The notes beneath the pieces are model-generated. The model saw nothing but the letters and a program-made list of their open reading frames with translations. It made no database searches and had not been told where the DNA came from. A program made the position numbers and the translations under genes. From a virus, in IMG/VR virus record IMGVR_UViG_3300032307_000646, positions 9,369 to 73,368 of that record: 64,000 nucleotides of DNA. The stretch is one strand, 5' to 3'. Positions within the stretch are counted from its first letter, which is position 1. Every line of letters begins with the position of its first letter. Below are positions 30,734 to 36,669 of this stretch, piece by piece.

Positions 30734-31632
30734 TACATTATATAGTTAGTTAATTCATATTTACCAGAAGGCATTCTGTATAATGAAATTTGTAACATTT
30801 TTTTAAGCGGTTTACCATCTTTTAATAACTCAACATGGTACTGAACAGTTTTTTCATAAGCAACATGTTCTGGGGTGATACTTTCCCAGTTAACCGTAAA
30901 ACCTTTATGGTTAGCGTATTCTTCGGCAGATTCTAAAGCACCAGCTTGTGTATCAAAATAATTTTCTTGTTGGAATCCTCTACCTTCGAAAACTTTACCA
31001 TCTTTACCAGCTCTCATAGCCATCCAAGAACCTTCCTCTTCTTCAAGCTCTTTTTGAAGTTCGTCCAGACTTTCTAATTTAAGATCACCCAAAGCGTCCA
31101 TTGTGTCGTCATAACCAGGCATTTTATAATCTGGTTCTTCTTCTGGTTCTCCGAACATATCATCAATTAGTGATTGGGCCATTGATTTTAAATCAATTTT
31201 ATTATTACCACGACCCATATTCCAAACACTCCCTAAAGCGTTCTCAAGGTAATCAACCCTATTATCGGAGCCAACCTTCGCATCTTCCATAGCAAGATCC
31301 CAAGATTCCTCAACGTCTTCATTTTTCTCAAAAGTTTCTGGGTCTCTATCTTGTTTATTAGCGGTTGCGTAATAAACCTCTTCACCCTTTTTATCACCGT
31401 ATTGGTCTTTGAATTTATTAAGAACTTCAGTGTTCTCATCAGTTTCCTCTTCTCTCATTGAACCAACAATATCCGATGGAGATAACTCTTCTATCGCGTC
31501 TTTACCGTAATTGATTTCATAATCATCATCCTCTGGGGACATGTTTGTAATTTTACCGCTTGGGCTAACATGATTTACACCCATCATTTCTTGTATTCTA
31601 GAAAGTTCTTCGTTTAAACTGGATTTTTTCAT
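30733..31632 (-). CDS. acidic protein with LNEELSRIQEMMG peptide
   Basis: Shared motif; QYG..KGEEVYYATANK. Confidence 0.8.
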   Translation of the reverse strand: MKKSSLNEELSRIQEMMGVNHVSPSGKITNMSPEDDDYEINYGKDAIEELSPSDIVGSMREEETDENTEVLNKFKDQYGDKKGEEVYYATANKQDRDPETFEKNEDVEESWDLAMEDAKVGSDNRVDYLENALGSVWNMGRGNNKIDLKSMAQSLIDDMFGEPEEEPDYKMPGYDDTMDALGDLKLESLDELQKELEEEEGSWMAMRAGKDGKVFEGRGFQQENYFDTQAGALESAEEYANHKGFTVNWESITPEHVAYEKTVQYHVELLKDGKPLKKMLQISLYRMPSGKYELTNYIM

Positions 31633-31699
31633 AAAAACATTTATTTATAAATACTTTTATAAAAAGAAAAAAGACTATATTGGTAATTAAAATGTGAAG

Positions 31700-31773
31700 T
31701 CGTCCTAGCTGGACTCGAACCAGCGGCCTTCTGCGTATCAGGCAGACGCTCTAACCAACTGAGCTACAGGACG
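31700..31773 (-). tRNA. tRNA-Ile(GAT)
   Basis: Cloverleaf; anticodon loop CT-GAT-AC; GGTTCGAGTCC. Confidence 0.92.
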
Positions 31774-31833
31774 ATAAATTAGATTTTGCACAATAAACAT
31801 TGTTCGTTTATCGTAGCAAAAACGGGTTTATTG

Positions 31834-31907
31834 TACCTTCAGAGAGACTCGAACTCCCAACCTTTTCGTTCGTAGCGAAACGCTCTAATCCATTGAGCTA
31901 TGAAGGT
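31834..31907 (-). tRNA. tRNA-Arg(ACG)
   Basis: TTTCG-CTACGAA-CGAAA. Confidence 0.92.
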
Positions 31908-31912
31908 AAATA

Positions 31913-32026
31913 ATAGGCCATTGTTACAATATCTCTCACCCACTTTCTTGGCAGGGTATCCATCATGGGTTCCGTTAACTGATATCTATTTTATAACCCC
32001 TGACGGAACAAACGGGGTAACCTATT
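31913..32026 (-). ncRNA. candidate structured RNA with a possible pseudoknot
   Basis: AATAGG/CCTATT closing stem; ACCCC/GGGGT hairpin whose loop GTTCCGT complements downstream ACGGAAC. Confidence 0.4.
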
Positions 32027-32104
32027 TGGGGTGACTGATGGGACTCGAACCCACGACCTCTTGAATCACAATCAAGCACTCTAACCAACTGAGCTACAGA
32101 AACC
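32027..32104 (-). tRNA. tRNA-His(GTG)
   Basis: CTTGA-TTGTGAT-TCAAG; G-1, C73 and encoded CCA; two acceptor-stem mismatches. Confidence 0.88.
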
Positions 32105-32109
32105 ATATA

Positions 32110-32184
32110 TGGTAGCGAGAGGGAATTTCGAAATCCCGACCTTTCGGATATGAGCCGAATGCTCTTCCTCTGAGCTATCTCGCC
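32110..32184 (-). tRNA. tRNA-Met(CAT) (elongator-like; Ile2 not excluded)
   Basis: TTCGG-CTCATAT-CCGAA; encoded CCA. Confidence 0.88.
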
Positions 32185-32213
32185 ATTTTCTCGCCAATAT
32201 GGCGAGATATTTG

Positions 32214-32284
32214 TTGTCCCTTCAGGACTCGAACCTGAATTCTCTGGCTCAAAACCAGATGTGCTGCCATTACACCAAGGGACA
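32214..32284 (-). tRNA. tRNA-Gln(TTG)
   Basis: TCTGG-TTTTGAG-CCAGA. Confidence 0.92.
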
Positions 32285-32287
32285 ATA

Positions 32288-32363
32288 TGGTGGAGCTAAT
32301 GGGACTCGAACCCACATCCTCTTCCTTGCAAGGGAAGCGCTCAGCCAATTGAGCTATAACCCC
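32288..32363 (-). tRNA. tRNA-Ala(TGC)
   Basis: CTTCC-CTTGCAA-GGAAG; G3:U70; encoded CCA. Confidence 0.93.
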
Positions 32364-32364
32364 A

Positions 32365-32826
32365 TTAATTTTGTCGAAAAGTTATCTGCCTTAAACAATG
32401 GTCTAGCAGATACTGTTCAACATTTGGTATTTTCCTCAAGAAGTCATACTCATATGAATAACAAAGTATTTCTTCTCTTGGTGATTCTTGGACACCTCTA
32501 TATCTAAGATAAAGGTGTAAAGATTCATGTACAATAACAGCCGCGAGATTGTTTAGGGATTTTGCCCTAGCGTCTGTTGACGATATTACTATACTACCCT
32601 TTGCGTCTTTAGAACCCTCATTTGTTGAGTAGTTACCAGACCAAAATGTTATTTTATTACAAACACGTAAAACGAGTTTATAAGCGGTGGTATCTGTTTG
32701 TCTGATAATTGTTAAAGCACTATCAGCTCTCAGATCCCAACCATCCCCAGCTTTATCGATTACAATTTGTGATTTACAAATCGTTGTGGATAAAACCATT
32801 ACGATCATTAATATTAGTTTCCTCAT
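32365..32826 (-). CDS. secreted HExxH metalloprotease-like protein inside the tRNA array (start revised to MRKLILM)
   Basis: Signal peptide; VIVHESLH...EE; TATTTAT upstream. Confidence 0.7.
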   Translation of the reverse strand: MRKLILMIVMVLSTTICKSQIVIDKAGDGWDLRADSALTIIRQTDTTAYKLVLRVCNKITFWSGNYSTNEGSKDAKGSIVISSTDARAKSLNNLAAVIVHESLHLYLRYRGVQESPREEILCYSYEYDFLRKIPNVEQYLLDHCLRQITFRQN

Positions 32827-32838
32827 ATTAATAAATAG

Positions 32839-32920
32839 TGCCAGCAGGTGGACTCGAACCACCGAACCCGTAAGGGAGCAGATTTACAGTCTGCCGCAAT
32901 TGCCGCTATGCGATACTGGC
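32839..32920 (-). tRNA. tRNA-Tyr(GTA)
   Basis: GCAGA-CTGTAAA-TCTGC; long variable arm. Confidence 0.93.
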
Positions 32921-32924
32921 AAGT

Positions 32925-33059
32925 GAGGTAAGAGGAAGATGGTTCAGTGGACATCCTCTTTTACGATCGGCATTACTTGGGTGAATACCTGCAAACTCCG
33001 ATCACACCAGTCAGTATTCACTCTCGAACTATTGATGTGATCATTCCCCGATCAACCTT
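32925..33059 (-). ncRNA. candidate multi-stem structured RNA
   Basis: GATCGG/CCGATC, GTGAATAC/GTATTCAC and AAGAGGA/TCCTCTT pairings. Confidence 0.45.
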
Positions 33060-33061
33060 TG

Positions 33062-33134
33062 TACACCCTATAGGACTCGAACCTATGACATCTGCCATGT
33101 AAGGGCAGCGCTCTACCAACTGAGCTAAAGGTGC
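33062..33134 (-). tRNA. tRNA-Val(TAC)
   Basis: CTGCC-CTTACAT-GGCAG. Confidence 0.92.
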
Positions 33135-33236
33135 ATGTGTCCCTTCGTAGGTACTTGCCGTTTCTTAAGTCGACACTTTCCCCGTTGCGTGTTTTATTTA
33201 AGTGTACTTCCCTACTGGGACTTGAAGCCAACACAT
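33135..33236 (-). ncRNA. candidate long bulged-hairpin RNA
   Basis: Nested ATGTGT/ACACAT, CTTC/GAAG, GTAGG/CCTAC, CTTAA/TTAAG and ACAC/GTGT. Confidence 0.45.
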
Positions 33237-33238
33237 TG

Positions 33239-33319
33239 TACCCAAAGAGAGACTCGAACTCTCACGCCTTTCAGCCACGGTTTCTAAGACCGTTATGTCT
33301 ACCATTCCATCACTCGGGC
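33239..33319 (-). tRNA. tRNA-Leu(TAG)
   Basis: ACGGT-CTTAGAA-ACCGT; long variable arm. Confidence 0.92.
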
Positions 33320-33326
33320 ATTTTAG

Positions 33327-33397
33327 CACGGATACAAGGATTCGAACCCTGAACTGTGGTTTTGGAGACCATTATGATACCATTTCACCATACCCGT
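33327..33397 (-). tRNA. tRNA-Trp(CCA)
   Basis: TGGT-CTCCAAA-ACCA. Confidence 0.9.
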
Positions 33398-33406
33398 GTA
33401 TATTTG

Positions 33407-33476
33407 AGTATAAGGTTGGAATCGAACCAACACCGTTGGTTTTGCAGACCAACTGACCACCACGATCAACTTATAC
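33407..33476 (-). tRNA. tRNA-Cys(GCA)
   Basis: TTGGT-CTGCAAA-ACCAA; U73; short D-loop. Confidence 0.87.
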
Positions 33477-33481
33477 GTTTG

Positions 33482-33555
33482 TGTCCCCGACAGGACTCGA
33501 ACCTGTGACTCCCTCATTAAAAGTGAGGTGCTCTAACCAACTGAGCTACGAAGAC
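33482..33555 (-). tRNA. tRNA-Lys(TTT)
   Basis: CCTCA-CTTTTAA-TGAGG. Confidence 0.93.
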
Positions 33556-33561
33556 ATTGTG

Positions 33562-33637
33562 TCAGGATAGCTGGATTCGAACCAGCGATCCCCCGCGTCC
33601 AAGGCGGGTAGGGACGACCTGACTCCCCCATATCCTG
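33562..33637 (-). tRNA. tRNA-Pro(TGG)
   Basis: CCCGC-CTTGGAC-GCGGG; C1:G72, A73. Confidence 0.9.
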
Positions 33638-33644
33638 AATTAAG

Positions 33645-33719
33645 TAGCGTAGACAGGACTCGAACCTGCACTATGTCCTCATCCCAAATGAGGCGGCCTA
33701 CCAATTGGCCAACTACGCT
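33645..33719 (-). tRNA. tRNA-Pro(TGG), second divergent copy
   Basis: CCTCA-TTTGGGA-TGAGG; A1:U72. Confidence 0.85.
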
Positions 33720-33732
33720 ATTTTAAAATTAC

Positions 33733-33749
33733 CAATACGTCAAAGAACT
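33733..33749 (-). promoter_or_regulatory. boxA-like antitermination element
   Basis: AGTTCTTTGACGTATTG between the attenuator and the first tRNA; resembles rRNA-operon boxA. Confidence 0.55.
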
Positions 33750-33751
33750 GC

Positions 33752-33782
33752 AAAAAAAAACCCTGAACTTGTTGGTTCAGGG
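33752..33782 (-). terminator. attenuator terminator upstream of the tRNA array
   Basis: CCCTGAAC-CAACAA-GTTCAGGG followed by T9. Confidence 0.9.
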
Positions 33783-33819
33783 CTTCGTTTTTCTTAGTTT
33801 TAGTTTTATTTCTACAACA

Positions 33820-33918
33820 TCATGAAAATACTTGGTCTGAACCCGATACGGTACGAGGATACCACTGGCACACTGCCATCGGTTTAATCACTGCGATATG
33901 TAGGTTCATATTTTTCAT
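33820..33918 (-). CDS. tRNA-array leader peptide MKNMNLHIAVIKPMAVCQWYPRTVSGSDQVFS (not in ORF track)
   Basis: Hand-translated; lies between promoter and terminator; codons mirror the tRNA set. Confidence 0.8.
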   Translation of the reverse strand: MKNMNLHIAVIKPMAVCQWYPRTVSGSDQVFS

Positions 33919-33945
33919 TTTAATGTTATTGTTAAATAATTAGTA

Positions 33946-33976
33946 CAAAATTAAGCAAAGTTTTCTAAAAAACAAA
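33946..33976 (-). promoter_or_regulatory. sigma-A-type promoter of the leader/tRNA operon
   Basis: TTTG-N19-TAATTTTG. Confidence 0.75.
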
Positions 33977-34003
33977 CTTTTTACGATTTTTTTTTAAAAA
34001 AAA

Positions 34004-34387
34004 TTATCTTTTACCAGTTTTTGTTGGGTTAACACCTTGATTTCTATCAATATAGATCCAGTCACAAGATGTTAAATCAAATTGATTTAAGTGATCTAAG
34101 ACAACATCTATATCATATTCTTTGCAAGAATATATATCAAACTGCACTAAAGATGGGGTCTCGTTATCCCAAACGTGTATCGATGCGTGTGATGTTGCTA
34201 ATGTTATCGTACCCGTAACACCTTCGTTACCTGGCTCGTTTACATATACGGATGTTGGGCCAGCCACAACTACCATACCAACTTTATCAACTAACTCTTT
34301 TAACCAAGTGTTAAGCGATTCTTCTGTTCTTGGTGGGTTATTTACAAACCCCCTAACAATTAAATGTACGTGATTAGGTTTAAACAT
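34004..34387 (-). CDS. speD: S-adenosylmethionine decarboxylase-like pyruvoyl proenzyme
   Basis: GVTG...LATSHASIHVW...QFDIYSCK. Confidence 0.8.
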   Translation of the reverse strand: MFKPNHVHLIVRGFVNNPPRTEESLNTWLKELVDKVGMVVVAGPTSVYVNEPGNEGVTGTITLATSHASIHVWDNETPSLVQFDIYSCKEYDIDVVLDHLNQFDLTSCDWIYIDRNQGVNPTKTGKR

Positions 34388-34391
34388 GGTT

Positions 34392-34643
34392 TTAAAATTC
34401 TTCTTCTAAATCATCATTATCATCATCATCGAAGGTTCTACCATCGTAGTAACCGTCATCTGTGTCAGATATTATTGTTTCTATTTCATATAACACATCA
34501 CTTATTCGTTCAATAACGTTATCGGTTACATCATCCCTAAAATTCTCAGGATCAATCATCTCTAACTTATTTTCGGCATCTTCCTTGAGATCAATTATTT
34601 GTCTCTGTAAGTCTTTAAGATAATTTAAGGCTAATTTGCTCAT
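34392..34643 (-). CDS. small acidic protein (start probably MSKLAL)
   Basis: ORF with TATTTAT upstream. Confidence 0.7.
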   Translation of the reverse strand: MSKLALNYLKDLQRQIIDLKEDAENKLEMIDPENFRDDVTDNVIERISDVLYEIETIISDTDDGYYDGRTFDDDDNDDLEEEF

Positions 34644-34770
34644 GTTGTTTTTTTTCACATAAATAGGTTCGTTTATAGTAAAAAACAGATTTTGTTTAAT
34701 AAAATTTTTTTGAAAGTAAAGGGTCTTTTTTGTGATTTTTATCTATTTATAAATATCAAAACAAAACAAC

Positions 34771-36669
34771 ATGAAAAATTTATTTTTAACGCTAGTGCTG
34801 GCGTTATTAGCCATTACTGGCTATGCACAAACAACTGCGCCGTCAGGTGGTAATTGGGTTATCGTTGACTCATCTTACAATGTCGGACCGCAGTCACAAG
34901 GTTTCACTTTAGCTAACCTTTATTATGACAACACAACAACGACTAAAATTGCTGGTTTACAGTTCCGTGTATTCTACGACAAAGTGGCTTTCGGTGGTGC
35001 AAAACCAACCGTAACCTTGTTATACAGTAGTACTGACCAGTATATGCAATATGTTGCAGATTCGGTGAATGGTAACATTACCGTTACGTTAGCTTATACG
35101 GGTACCAACAACTCATTCACATATGCTGACGGTGCGGCGTTCCAGATTAAGTTCTTTCACCAAGCTGCAACCGCTTTCCAAGCTTTAACTAGTATTGATA
35201 GTTTGAAGGTTACTGGTACTTTAACGTTCCCTTCATATGCATCAACAATAGCTGGTATTGATACAACATTATCTTTACATAGTTATGGTGGTGAATTTAA
35301 AATGAACAGATTGAAATACCACGGTAGATTTACAAACGTAACTGGTTCTGGATCTAAAGATATTACAATTGCTTTAGAGAAAAGACCTAAAACATCAACA
35401 GGTGCTTGGACTCAGGTTAAACTTGATACCACTGACGTTACGGGTTATTTCGCTTTTGATGAGATCTTAGATACAACTTATTGGGATGCTCACTTATACG
35501 TTAAAGGTGATACGATGGCTGTGGGTAACACAGTATCTGTTGCCGATGCACAAAAGGTTAATAAATTCGTTATAGGTGAAGAAACACCAACAGGTTTTGA
35601 TTTCTACGCGTCTGACGTAAACGGTTCTTACGGTATTACAATTGCTGACGTATCAGCTATATACGGTCGCTTAGCGGGTAGATTCTCAGTGTGGCCAAAC
35701 TCTATTCAGGACGTTAGATTCTTCTCAGCTTCACAGTATGCGACAATCAACGGATCTTCAACTAACTATACATCAACTATTGCTGGTGTAACTAACTTAA
35801 CATTTGATATTATCGCTGGTCAACCTGACTCAGTAACATTCTACGTATTAGGTGGTGGTGACGCGAACGGTACTGGTTTCCATATGGCTCGTACAATCCC
35901 TATTGAAATCTTAAATCCTAGTAAAACTCCTCAGTATATCATCGATGAGACAGTTGAGTACGATTTCCCTACATCGACAATCGAAATTAATTTACCAAAA
36001 ATTGAAATCACTGAGGGTAGTTTAGTAAACGTACCAATGAAAGTTTTAACACAAGGTGACCAAGTTGGTTCAATTCAATTGGCTTTGGCTTACGATAACA
36101 CTTTATTGGAGTTTAAAGGTATTAAAACAGAACAAAAATTTATGAACTGGATGTCATTCTTAAACCCTAATAACGGTGTTGTTGAATGGGCTGGTGCTGA
36201 TATGAGTAAAAACGAATATCTGGCTAATAACGGTGACGCTGTTTTAACATTACAATTTACAGCGTTATCACCACAATCAACCTGGGGTAATAGCGCTTTA
36301 TATGTTATAAGAAAATACGCTGGAGACGCTTCCGCAACTGATTTAAGAATAACACCAACAAACGGCGTTGTTAAGATATTCAAAGTAAATGGTGGTGGTA
36401 CTTTAACAAAGGATTGTGAAATAATCGTTACCCCTAACCCAACAGATGGTTTAGCTTTTGTAAGCTTTAGTGTACCAGAAGATGGAGAAATTTCGGTTGG
36501 GTTTTATGATGCTAGTGGTAAATTAGTGTATAGTGTTTATAAGGGTAAAATGTATAAAGGTAAATATCTTTATCCAGTTGACTTGACTAACGTAACACCT
36601 GGCACATACTATGGTATTCTACAAACAGGATCTCAAATCAAAACAAATAAAACAATAAAATTAAACTAA
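34771..36669 (+). CDS. secreted cohesin-like/dockerin-like protein with a T9SS C-terminal domain
   Basis: Signal peptide; GLQFRVFYD and SIQLALAYDNTLLEF cohesin-like strands; DVNGSYGITIADV; PNPT...YDASGKLV...GTYY. Confidence 0.75.
   Translation: MKNLFLTLVLALLAITGYAQTTAPSGGNWVIVDSSYNVGPQSQGFTLANLYYDNTTTTKIAGLQFRVFYDKVAFGGAKPTVTLLYSSTDQYMQYVADSVNGNITVTLAYTGTNNSFTYADGAAFQIKFFHQAATAFQALTSIDSLKVTGTLTFPSYASTIAGIDTTLSLHSYGGEFKMNRLKYHGRFTNVTGSGSKDITIALEKRPKTSTGAWTQVKLDTTDVTGYFAFDEILDTTYWDAHLYVKGDTMAVGNTVSVADAQKVNKFVIGEETPTGFDFYASDVNGSYGITIADVSAIYGRLAGRFSVWPNSIQDVRFFSASQYATINGSSTNYTSTIAGVTNLTFDIIAGQPDSVTFYVLGGGDANGTGFHMARTIPIEILNPSKTPQYIIDETVEYDFPTSTIEINLPKIEITEGSLVNVPMKVLTQGDQVGSIQLALAYDNTLLEFKGIKTEQKFMNWMSFLNPNNGVVEWAGADMSKNEYLANNGDAVLTLQFTALSPQSTWGNSALYVIRKYAGDASATDLRITPTNGVVKIFKVNGGGTLTKDCEIIVTPNPTDGLAFVSFSVPEDGEISVGFYDASGKLVYSVYKGKMYKGKYLYPVDLTNVTPGTYYGILQTGSQIKTNKTIKLN

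What the first reader, a model, noticed from the sequence alone, without database searches (positions are those of the whole stretch)
33752..33908. Mutually exclusive 1:2 / 2:3 / 3:4 pairings in the tRNA-array leader
SEEN (minus strand): segment 1 TGAACCT (33908-33902); segment 2 GGGTTCAG (33844-33837, codons 25-28); segment 3 CTGAACC (33780-33774, terminator 5' arm); segment 4 GTTCAGGG+T9 (33768-33752). Segment 2 can pair with 1 (7 bp including a G-U) or with 3 (7 bp, antiterminator), and 3:4 is the terminator. CCGAT (codons 13-14)/ATCGG (codons 24-26), TGGCA/TGCCA and GGTA/TACC could also sequester segment 2 when the leader is untranslated. The last sensing codon (22) lies about three codons before segment 2, roughly the downstream edge of a stalled ribosome. 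INFERENCE: classical attenuator geometry, supporting the previous finding independently of codon content.
Basis: partly seen in the sequence, partly recalled or inferred. Interest (0 to 1): 0.85.

Follow-up and report, generated by a model that had tools for sequence, protein, structure and literature searches.

The report
Switchable terminator before phage tRNA genes
A phage of Bacteroidota places a tiny test gene and an RNA switch that can stop or pass transcription in front of its 14 tRNA genes, so it probably makes these tRNAs only when ribosomes read their codons slowly.

Summary
The terminator (3:4) and the competing pairing 2:3 are real. Taken alone, the window's 2:3 is only modestly above chance (shuffle p 0.04).

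I collected 69 distinct "hairpin + T-run + boxA" modules from viral contigs. 66 of them have a short ORF, and these fall into 19 usable leader families. In these, the 3' end of each ORF is complementary to the 5' arm of its own terminator, although the stems differ. The mean duplex energy is -13.9 kcal/mol with the own arm and -9.2 with other families' arms, and 0 of 20,000 permutations did as well. Compensatory changes occur within families.

The 1:2 pairing is predicted in this clade (P 0.97). It has no family-wide support (permutation p 0.86) and is not significant here (p 0.09).

Leader codons mirror the array's anticodons: own leaders sample 92.7% of them and other families' leaders 69.9%.

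Verdict: this is a ribosome-mediated attenuator gating a tRNA array, followed by an rRNA-type boxA. Seven literature searches found no description. Earlier notes of this scan report the same kind of element in at least 119 other genomes.

The parts
33946..33976 (-). Promoter of Bacteroidota type: TTTG (33976-33973), 19 bases, TAATTTTG (33953-33946)
   Evidence: Sequence. It is kept in all relatives, with changes only at the two free positions of the -7 box (TAATTTTG or TACTTTTG). 15 of 19 leader families have TAnnTTTG within 90 nt upstream of the ATG. The consensus itself is recalled, not tested here.
33820..33918 (-). Leader ORF of 32 codons (MKNMNLHIAVIKPMAVCQWYPRTVSGSDQVFS, then TGA). Codons 1-22 use all 13 amino acids of the array.
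   Evidence: The ORF is kept, without frameshift or early stop, in 14 distinct variants. All indels lie outside it.
33902..33908 (-). Segment 1 (TGAACCT, codons 4-6): 5' strand of the 1:2 helix inside a long hairpin that spans the ORF
   Evidence: Invariant in 12 relatives. There is no family-wide signal.
33837..33844 (-). Segment 2 (GGGTTCAG, codons 25-28). It pairs either with segment 1 or with segment 3 (antiterminator).
   Evidence: The counterparts in 18 other families are complementary to their own terminator arms.
33822..33828 (-). UUUUCAU, predicted to pair with the start region AUGAAAA (33918-33912) at the base of the ORF hairpin
   Evidence: Consensus fold of 12 relatives. All 7 pairs are invariant, so this is neither support nor refutation.
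33774..33782 (-). 5' arm of the terminator (CCCTGAAC, 33782-33775) and segment 3 (CTGAACC, 33780-33774)
   Evidence: An A-to-G change in L082 and L137 keeps both 2:3 and 3:4 through G-U pairs.
33752..33768 (-). 3' arm of the terminator (GTTCAGGG, 33768-33761) and T9 run (33760-33752)
   Evidence: P(3:4) is 0.99 once segment 4 is present. An RNA-library contig of run X1 ends at 33752 (weak hint).
33729..33747 (-). boxA-like 19-mer TTCTTTGACGTATTGGTAA, 4 bases after the T-run and 28 bases (boxA start to tRNA start) before tRNA-Pro
   Evidence: More than 100 exact hits in viral contigs. The same 19-mer lies between the spacer tRNA or the 16S rRNA and the 23S rRNA in Bacteroidota rRNA operons L387, L385 and L363.
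31699..33719 (-). Array of 14 tRNA genes: Pro, Pro, Lys, Cys, Trp, Leu, Val, Tyr, Ala, Gln, Met, His, Arg, Ile
   Evidence: ARAGORN and Rfam tRNA matches.

Best explanation
This is a ribosome-mediated transcription attenuator that gates the phage's tRNA array.

Transcription starts at the promoter at 33976-33946 (inferred). The 32-codon leader is translated while the polymerase moves on (inferred). Its codons are ones read by the tRNAs encoded downstream (shown).

If the ribosome is slowed on any of them, segment 2 (33844-33837) is still free when segment 3 emerges. It pairs with segment 3, the terminator hairpin cannot form in time, and the polymerase reads on. The polymerase then transcribes the boxA-like site, probably becoming termination-resistant as in rRNA operons (inferred), and makes the 14 tRNAs.

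If decoding is fast, the ribosome runs over segment 2 and reaches the stop codon. Segment 2 is then covered or, in this clade, re-captured by segment 1, so 3:4 forms and transcription ends at the T9 run.

The result is negative feedback on the tRNA supply.

What is shown: the segments; the covariation of 2:3 and 3:4 across families; the codon-anticodon mirror; and the lack of a promoter motif between terminator and tRNA. What is inferred: translation of the ORF, the kinetic competition, and the role of 1:2 and of boxA.
For: (1) All segments are at the stated places, and the terminator is strong.

(2) The cassette moves as one unit. In relatives the DNA upstream is a decarboxylase-like gene, an acidic-protein gene, or two further tRNAs. 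Promoter, ORF, terminator, boxA and array stay together in all three contexts.

(3) 2:3 covaries across families. In 19 leader families, the duplex of the leader with its own terminator 5' arm averages -13.9 kcal/mol, against -9.2 with other families' arms. 0 of 20,000 permutations did as well, and 13 of 19 own arms rank first. Within families there are compensatory changes: L254 and L295 against L242, and L241 against L223.

(4) The geometry is tight. The stop codon lies 17-42 nt (median 27) before the 5' arm. Segment 2 ends from 29 nt before the stop to 10 nt past it (median 13 nt before), and within 15 nt of the stop in 12 of 19 families.

(5) The codon mirror holds in 17 families that have at least 5 tRNAs. 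92.7% of array anticodons are sampled by the own leader, against 69.9% for other families' leaders. 61.7% of leader codons are readable by the own array, against 44.8% by other families' arrays. Permutation p is 5e-5 for each. Leu, Ser and Arg codons fall in the codon box of the array's own isoacceptor in 36 of 46 cases, against 20.3 expected (z 5.2).

(6) 16 of 19 modules have no TAnnTTTG between T-run and first tRNA. The gaps are short: medians of 4 nt from T-run to boxA and 27 nt from the start of boxA to the tRNA. The array therefore depends on read-through.

(7) Masked folding of the window gives P(2:3) of 0.84-0.99 for a ribosome at codons 2-10. P(2:3) is 0.00 without a ribosome, 0.00 at codons 23-32 and 0.01 at the stop codon.
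Against: There is no experimental datum. Translation of the ORF, the transcription start and read-through are all untested.

The window's own pairings are weak statistically (p 0.04 and 0.09). The 12 close relatives give no usable covariation.

At equilibrium the terminator always wins (P 0.99), so the switch must be kinetic. The 2:3 helix has only 7 pairs and closes a loop of 56 nt.

Segment 2 ends 15 nt before the stop codon, at the very edge of a terminating ribosome's footprint, so masking by that ribosome is doubtful here.

For stalls at codons 16-20 the model lets 1:2 re-form (P 0.71-0.95).

The mirror is not strict within the clade. L143 lacks tRNA-Ala, L137 lacks tRNA-Met and L082 has one tRNA-Pro instead of two. 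The leaders of L143 and L137 still carry Ala and Met codons, and L082's still has two Pro codons. The two Asn codons (3 and 5) have no tRNA in the array.

In 3 of 17 families (L312, L253, L282) the own array reads fewer leader codons than other arrays do. The DNA held downstream is short for L253 and L282 but is the full 6000 bases for L312.
Confidence: 0.72

Rival explanations
1. The switch senses translation in general (ribosome supply, coupling of ribosome and polymerase, stress) and not the particular tRNAs. The leader is only a timer, and its codon content is secondary.
For: The two-state design without 1:2 in most families makes total ribosome transit time the signal. Leaders also hold codons with no tRNA in the array: Asn here, and 38% of codons on average under strict wobble rules.
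Against: Leader codons match the family's own array far better than other arrays do, down to the codon box of Leu, Ser and Arg. Leaders change with their arrays: L223 has Glu codons and a Glu tRNA, and L241 has neither.
Confidence: 0.12
2. Promoter, ORF and terminator form a separate small gene (a 32-residue peptide or a roughly 190-nt small RNA with a long hairpin) that simply ends at its own terminator. The tRNAs are made from another start.
For: The ORF region folds into a long hairpin that is more stable than shuffles (window z -2.7; family mean z -1.9). Most base changes among the 12 relatives keep that hairpin (99% of cells paired). An RNA-library contig of X1 covers just 33752-33962.
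Against: There is no promoter motif and almost no room between the T-run and the first tRNA (16 of 19 modules). This reading does not explain why the 3' end of the ORF matches the terminator arm in 19 families. Nor does it explain why the codons mirror the array. A contig of X3 bridges the terminator (33566-33962), though that could be DNA.
Confidence: 0.08
3. Chance: a plain terminator of the upstream gene, an accidental ORF and accidental complementarity.
For: For the window alone the pairings are weak (p 0.04 and 0.09). The relatives are too alike to test.
Against: The cassette keeps its own promoter and stays with the array under three different upstream contexts. The family-wide permutation tests argue against chance.
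Confidence: 0.03

Closest known systems
Leader-peptide attenuators of amino-acid operons in enterobacteria (trp, his, leu, thr, ilvGMEDA, pheA leaders; named from memory)
   Same: A short translated leader rich in 'test' codons. An intrinsic terminator just after it. An alternative helix (2:3) that uses the terminator's 5' arm. The ribosome's position decides between the two. The thr and ilv leaders also test more than one amino acid.
   Different: The regulated products are tRNA genes, not enzymes. The leader samples up to 13-18 different codon kinds, mostly once or twice each, not a run of one codon. The match is to anticodons, at the level of the codon box. Segment 1 is not a family feature. 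A boxA-like site follows the terminator. The element is carried by phages.
T-box riboswitches
   Same: They also couple tRNA status to read-through of a terminator by way of an antiterminator helix.
   Different: A T-box binds one uncharged tRNA directly and needs no ribosome or ORF. No T-box or other family reached its Rfam threshold at 31000-35000.
rRNA-operon antitermination through boxA (NusB/NusE-dependent; named from memory)
   Same: The 19-mer after the terminator is identical to the one in the 16S-23S spacer of Bacteroidota rRNA operons. It lies ahead of a long run of structured, untranslated RNA.
   Different: Here it stands in a phage, in front of tRNAs, and directly behind a regulated terminator. 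Binding of Nus factors was not tested.
Rfam Thr_leader (RF00506) and Bacteroid-trp leader (the latter recalled)
   Same: Leader-peptide attenuators. Thr_leader gave a weak match to the terminator part.
   Different: The Thr_leader match scores 22.8 bits against a gathering score of 55 (E 0.42). It is not a member.

Membership tests
Ribosome-mediated (leader-peptide) transcription attenuator | Short ORF in the 5' leader of the regulated transcript | tested here: met
   A 32-codon ORF at 33918-33820. It is kept in 14 variants with all indels outside it. 66 of 69 distinct modules have such an ORF ending 10-60 nt before the hairpin. Translation itself was not tested.
Ribosome-mediated (leader-peptide) transcription attenuator | Intrinsic terminator between the leader ORF and the regulated genes | tested here: met
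   A stem of 8 G+C-rich pairs, extendable to 12, followed by T9. The same layout occurs in 69 distinct modules.
Ribosome-mediated (leader-peptide) transcription attenuator | Antiterminator helix that shares bases with the terminator's 5' arm and is exposed or hidden by the ribosome | tested here: met
   A 7-pair 2:3 helix. Own-arm against other-arm duplex is -13.9 vs -9.2 kcal/mol, with 0 of 20,000 permutations as good. Compensatory changes occur within families. Masked folding agrees.
Ribosome-mediated (leader-peptide) transcription attenuator | Anti-antiterminator or pause hairpin (1:2) | tested here: inconclusive
   In the window, P(1:2) is 0.97 without a ribosome, but shuffle p is 0.09. 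There is no family signal (p 0.86). The pairing probability of segment 2 is 0.67 against a null of 0.63 (p 0.13).
Ribosome-mediated (leader-peptide) transcription attenuator | Regulatory codons that relate to the regulated product | tested here: met
   All 14 tRNAs of the window's array have a cognate codon in the leader (row 'window').
Ribosome-mediated (leader-peptide) transcription attenuator | Read-through responds to the decoding rate | not testable with these tools
   This needs reporters, 3'-end mapping or ribosome profiling. The RNA-library contigs cannot show ends or levels.
T-box riboswitch | Match to the T-box covariance model (specifier loop, T-box sequence) | tested here: not met
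   No T-box match up to E = 1 in 31000-35000.
rRNA-type boxA antitermination site | Sequence shared with the boxA position of host-phylum rRNA operons | tested here: met
   The exact 19-mer lies between the spacer tRNA and the 23S rRNA in L387 and L385, and between the 16S and 23S rRNAs in L363.
rRNA-type boxA antitermination site | Binding of NusB/NusE and modification of the polymerase | not testable with these tools
   Not tested.

The most novel reading that the evidence does not exclude
Phages of Bacteroidota carry a whole family of 'codon-sampling' attenuators, with at least 19 leader families in the contigs held here. Each leader is a kinetic timer that adds up the decoding delays of up to 18 different tRNA species. 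It switches on its own tRNA block when any of them runs short. This would be a self-regulating tRNA supply that could also answer host defences or phage programmes that destroy tRNAs. The hand-over to an rRNA-type boxA then makes the decision irreversible for the whole array.
Probability: 0.55. Interest if true: 0.9.

Novelty: new variant of a known kind. Interest (0 to 1): 0.8.

Why it matters
Why phages carry tRNA genes is debated, and how they control them is hardly known. If this reading holds, it would be an attenuator that regulates tRNA genes by testing the very codons those tRNAs read. I could not find such a feedback loop described in print.

It gives a direct, testable read-out of what the phage 'wants' from its tRNAs: which codons are limiting during infection. 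It offers natural examples of multi-input kinetic RNA switches. It also shows phages borrowing the host's rRNA antitermination signal.

For annotation, it explains many short 'MK...' ORFs and terminators that sit oddly in front of tRNA arrays.

Tried and rejected
No close record in the phage collection. A blastn search of 33700-34400 found nothing. The array region matched only single tRNAs of unrelated phages.

Neighbours of the decarboxylase-like gene. Only 2 of 72 loci carry the array next to it, so that gene is not part of the cassette.

Arrays next to distant homologs of the 165-residue ORF (L091, L098-L100 and others). By eye I saw no such leader just upstream. These were not searched systematically.

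Covariation among the 12 close relatives is uninformative. For the ORF hairpin, 111 of 500 shuffles reach the observed score. For 2:3, 500 of 500 do.

A second promoter overlapping the T-run (TTTG, 19 bases, TAATTTTA). I rejected it because the -7-like box is not kept among relatives (by eye), and 16 of 19 modules lack any TAnnTTTG there.

The long helix between the 5' UTR and the region after the stop codon, seen in the single-sequence fold. It is absent from the consensus fold, and the 5' UTR varies.

I first took the 19-mer for a leader boxA of rRNA operons. Four genome loci showed no rRNA. Most of the 81 genome hits lie in what look like coding regions of Clostridia and other non-Bacteroidota (by eye). 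Only the Bacteroidota hits are rRNA spacers.

RNA-library contigs. Shares were small (0.20 or less). Contigs cannot show ends, strand or level. Parts without cover mean nothing. The stop of one X1 contig at 33752 is a weak hint only.

Rows dropped:
- 3 of 69 modules had no ORF ending 10-60 nt before the hairpin: the second sites of L193 and L298, and L305.
- L084 was removed as a leader because its ORF is the end of an 83-residue gene.
- The ORF of L281 was cut to an internal ATG by a length rule.
- L175 and L256 were left out because fewer than 5 tRNAs lie in the DNA held.

Supplementary files of papers were not consulted.

Full report
THE PLACE

The window is 64 kb of a single 73.4-kb contig with phage-like gene content. 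One protein carries a type IX secretion sorting domain, which points to a Bacteroidota host.

On the minus strand there are 14 tRNA genes at 33719-31699: Pro, Pro, Lys, Cys, Trp, Leu, Val, Tyr, Ala, Gln, Met, His, Arg, Ile. Upstream of them lie, in order:
- TTTG, 19 bases, then TAATTTTG (33976-33946);
- a 32-codon ORF (33918-33820; MKNMNLHIAVIKPMAVCQWYPRTVSGSDQVFS);
- a hairpin with a T9 run (33786-33752);
- the 19-mer TTCTTTGACGTATTGGTAA (33747-33729).

THE OBSERVATION

The single-sequence fold of 33945-33745 has 1:2 and 3:4 in its minimum-energy structure (-55.4 kcal/mol, z -5.9). Rfam has nothing above threshold. The weak Thr_leader match (22.8 bits against 55) only reflects the terminator.

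For this window alone the pairings are modest:
- 2:3 is -11.8 kcal/mol against -7.4 in shuffles (p 0.04).
- 1:2 is -9.4 kcal/mol against -7.2 in shuffles (p 0.09).

CLOSE RELATIVES

I found 14 distinct variants of the cassette. They came through a neighbouring gene, through an ORF inside the array, and through a degenerate pattern for leader codons 12-20 in viral and metagenome contigs.

The DNA upstream differs in three ways: a decarboxylase-like gene, an acidic-protein gene, or two more tRNAs including a suppressor-like one. Promoter, ORF, terminator, 19-mer and array stay together throughout. So the terminator is not simply the end of the upstream gene.

The ORF is never broken, and every indel lies outside it. 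These sequences are 93% alike, so they cannot test the pairings:
- For the ORF hairpin, 99% of cells pair, but 111 of 500 shuffles do as well.
- For 2:3, only one column varies. It is an A-to-G change that keeps both 2:3 and 3:4.

THE WIDER FAMILY

Many of these sit just after a hairpin with a T-run and just before tRNAs.

A second pattern scan and a script gave 116 such sites in 314 held loci, 69 of them distinct. 66 of the 69 have a short ATG ORF ending 10-60 nt before the hairpin. These ORFs fall into 20 peptide clusters. One (L084) is the end of a long gene and was dropped, leaving 19 families.

The modules were collected by terminator and 19-mer only. They were not collected by ORF or tRNA content.

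TEST OF 2:3

For each family representative I folded the leader (ATG to 6 nt before the arm) against the 5' arm of the terminator.
- The own-arm duplex averages -13.9 kcal/mol. Arms of other families give -9.2 (sd 2.4).
- None of 20,000 permutations reached the observed mean.
- 13 of 19 own arms rank first for their leader.

The stems differ (CCCGAAC, CCCTAAG, CCCATCTC, CCTCGGA, GCCCGAT and others), and segment 2 follows them. Within families there are compensatory changes. In family 3, for example, the arm and segment 2 change together in L254 and L295 relative to L242. L241 and L223 in family 2 do the same.

Segment 2 ends from 29 nt before the stop codon to 10 nt past it (median 13 nt before). 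The stop lies 17-42 nt (median 27) before the arm.

TEST OF 1:2

The same test between segment 2 and the upstream part of the leader gives no signal:
- own -6.3 vs other -6.7 kcal/mol, permutation p 0.86;
- leaders are more structured than shuffles (mean z -1.9; 13 of 19 at -2.0 or below);
- the pairing probability of segment 2 is not above its null (0.67 vs 0.63, p 0.13).

So segment 1 is at most a feature of this clade.

Masked folding of the window shows the following:

| Ribosome position (A site) | P(1:2) | P(2:3) |
|---|---|---|
| none | 0.97 | 0.00 |
| codons 2-10 | 0.00 | 0.84-0.99 |
| codons 11-15 | mixed | mixed |
| codons 16-20 | 0.71-0.95 | low |
| codons 23-32 (segment 2 masked) | 0.00-0.04 | 0.00 |
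| stop codon | 0.93 | 0.01 |

The values for codons 16-20 hold only if a helix can close around a ribosome, which is doubtful on steric grounds.

With segment 4 present, the terminator has P 0.99 in every case. The switch must therefore be kinetic.

CODON MIRROR

This bears on the interpretation. In 17 families with at least 5 tRNAs in the DNA held:
- 92.7% of array anticodons have a cognate codon in the own leader, against 69.9% for other families' leaders.
- 61.7% of leader codons are readable by the own array, against 44.8% by other families' arrays (strict wobble).
- All permutation p values are 5e-5.

For Leu, Ser and Arg, the leader uses the codon box of the array's own isoacceptor in 36 of 46 cases. 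Only 20.3 are expected from long ORFs of the same loci (z 5.2). The match is therefore to tRNAs, not just to amino acids.

Against a strict mirror:
- L143 lacks tRNA-Ala, L137 lacks tRNA-Met and L082 has one tRNA-Pro instead of two. The leaders of L143 and L137 still carry Ala and Met codons, and L082's still has two Pro codons.
- The Asn codons of the window's leader have no tRNA in the array.
- In L312, L253 and L282 the own array reads fewer leader codons than other arrays do.

NO SECOND PROMOTER

16 of 19 modules have no TAnnTTTG between T-run and first tRNA. The spacing is short: medians of 4 nt to the 19-mer and 27 nt from the start of the 19-mer to the tRNA. The array must therefore be reached by read-through.

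THE 19-MER

In cellular genomes the exact 19-mer lies between the spacer tRNA and the 23S rRNA (L387, L385), or between the 16S and 23S rRNAs (L363). These three rRNA operons are of Bacteroidota type by record title, except L385, which is binned otherwise. Most other genome hits look like coding regions of unrelated phyla (by eye).

This is the position of the spacer boxA in rRNA operons (recalled). It fits a hand-over to termination-resistant transcription after the decision point.

RNA LIBRARIES

Contigs of four metatranscriptome-type runs hold parts of the stretch. One contig of X1 covers 33752-33962 and stops at the last T of the T-run. One contig of X3 runs from 33566 to 33962, across the terminator. 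Contigs cannot show ends or levels and may come from DNA, so this is a weak hint only.

LITERATURE AND EARLIER NOTES

Seven full-text searches found no account of leader-peptide control of tRNA genes (listings only). I read the abstract of PMC4824070, which reports that ribosomes repress terminators placed a few base pairs after a gene. Here the spacing of 17-42 nt keeps the hairpin outside such occlusion (inference).

Earlier notes of this scan describe the same kind of element in at least 119 other genomes. I saw them after my own tests. They agree with my tests but are not independent evidence.

VERDICT

A terminator/antiterminator switch read by a ribosome on a leader that samples the array's codons is well supported by comparative evidence. 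The 1:2 element and the exact stall geometry are not.

This is a new variant of leader-peptide attenuation. Its interest is high because the regulated genes are tRNAs and the sensor tests their own codons.

Noticed in passing
window 33729-33747 (minus strand); L149-L251, L314-L393: The 19-mer TTCTTTGACRTATTGGTAA is widespread in viral contigs. It occurs after promoters, between tRNAs and after terminators. About 60 near-identical contigs carry it in front of a structured RNA that I did not identify ('...GGGAACAACAGAGAAGAG' upstream). The same context occurs in two Bacteroides genome records (L353, L386).
   Followed up: partly
window 33897-33901 (ACATA in CTACATATCG) and the leader ORFs of the other families: ACATA occurs within the first 48 nt of the leader ORF in 17 of 19 families. 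In 14 of them it starts at nt 15-20. It appears in any reading frame (CAT AT., AAC ATA, ACA TAT), which suggests a nucleotide-level signal such as a pause or processing site.
   Followed up: partly
L076-L080, L137, L138, L147 (upstream of the cassette): Some relatives carry a tRNA with anticodon CTA, which ARAGORN calls Pyl (a suppressor-like tRNA reading TAG). In L076-L080 a further tRNA-Cys lies just upstream of the leader promoter, outside the attenuated block.
   Followed up: no
L193 (12621), L298 (4083), L305 (4378): These are hairpin + T-run + boxA sites inside arrays with no leader ORF that qualifies. L193's nearest ORF ends 107 nt before the hairpin. They may be plain internal terminators followed by a fresh boxA.
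   Followed up: no
L084, L085, L180, L185: Relatives of the 165-residue ORF that have lost both the tRNAs and the leader. They keep a terminator and the 19-mer directly after the acidic-protein gene.
   Followed up: no
window 32365-32862 (minus strand): A 165-residue ORF with no Pfam match sits inside the tRNA array, between tRNA-Tyr and tRNA-Ala. It has homologs in 52 viral loci, several of them again next to tRNA arrays.
   Followed up: partly
window 32921-33060 and 33135-33237 (minus strand): There are gaps of about 100-140 nt between tRNAs (Val to Tyr, Leu to Val). Earlier first-reader notes call these structured RNAs. RNA-library contigs show high summed depth at 33010-33197, but tRNA-Val (33061-33134) lies in that stretch, and tRNA genes attract contigs of other organisms.
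   Followed up: no
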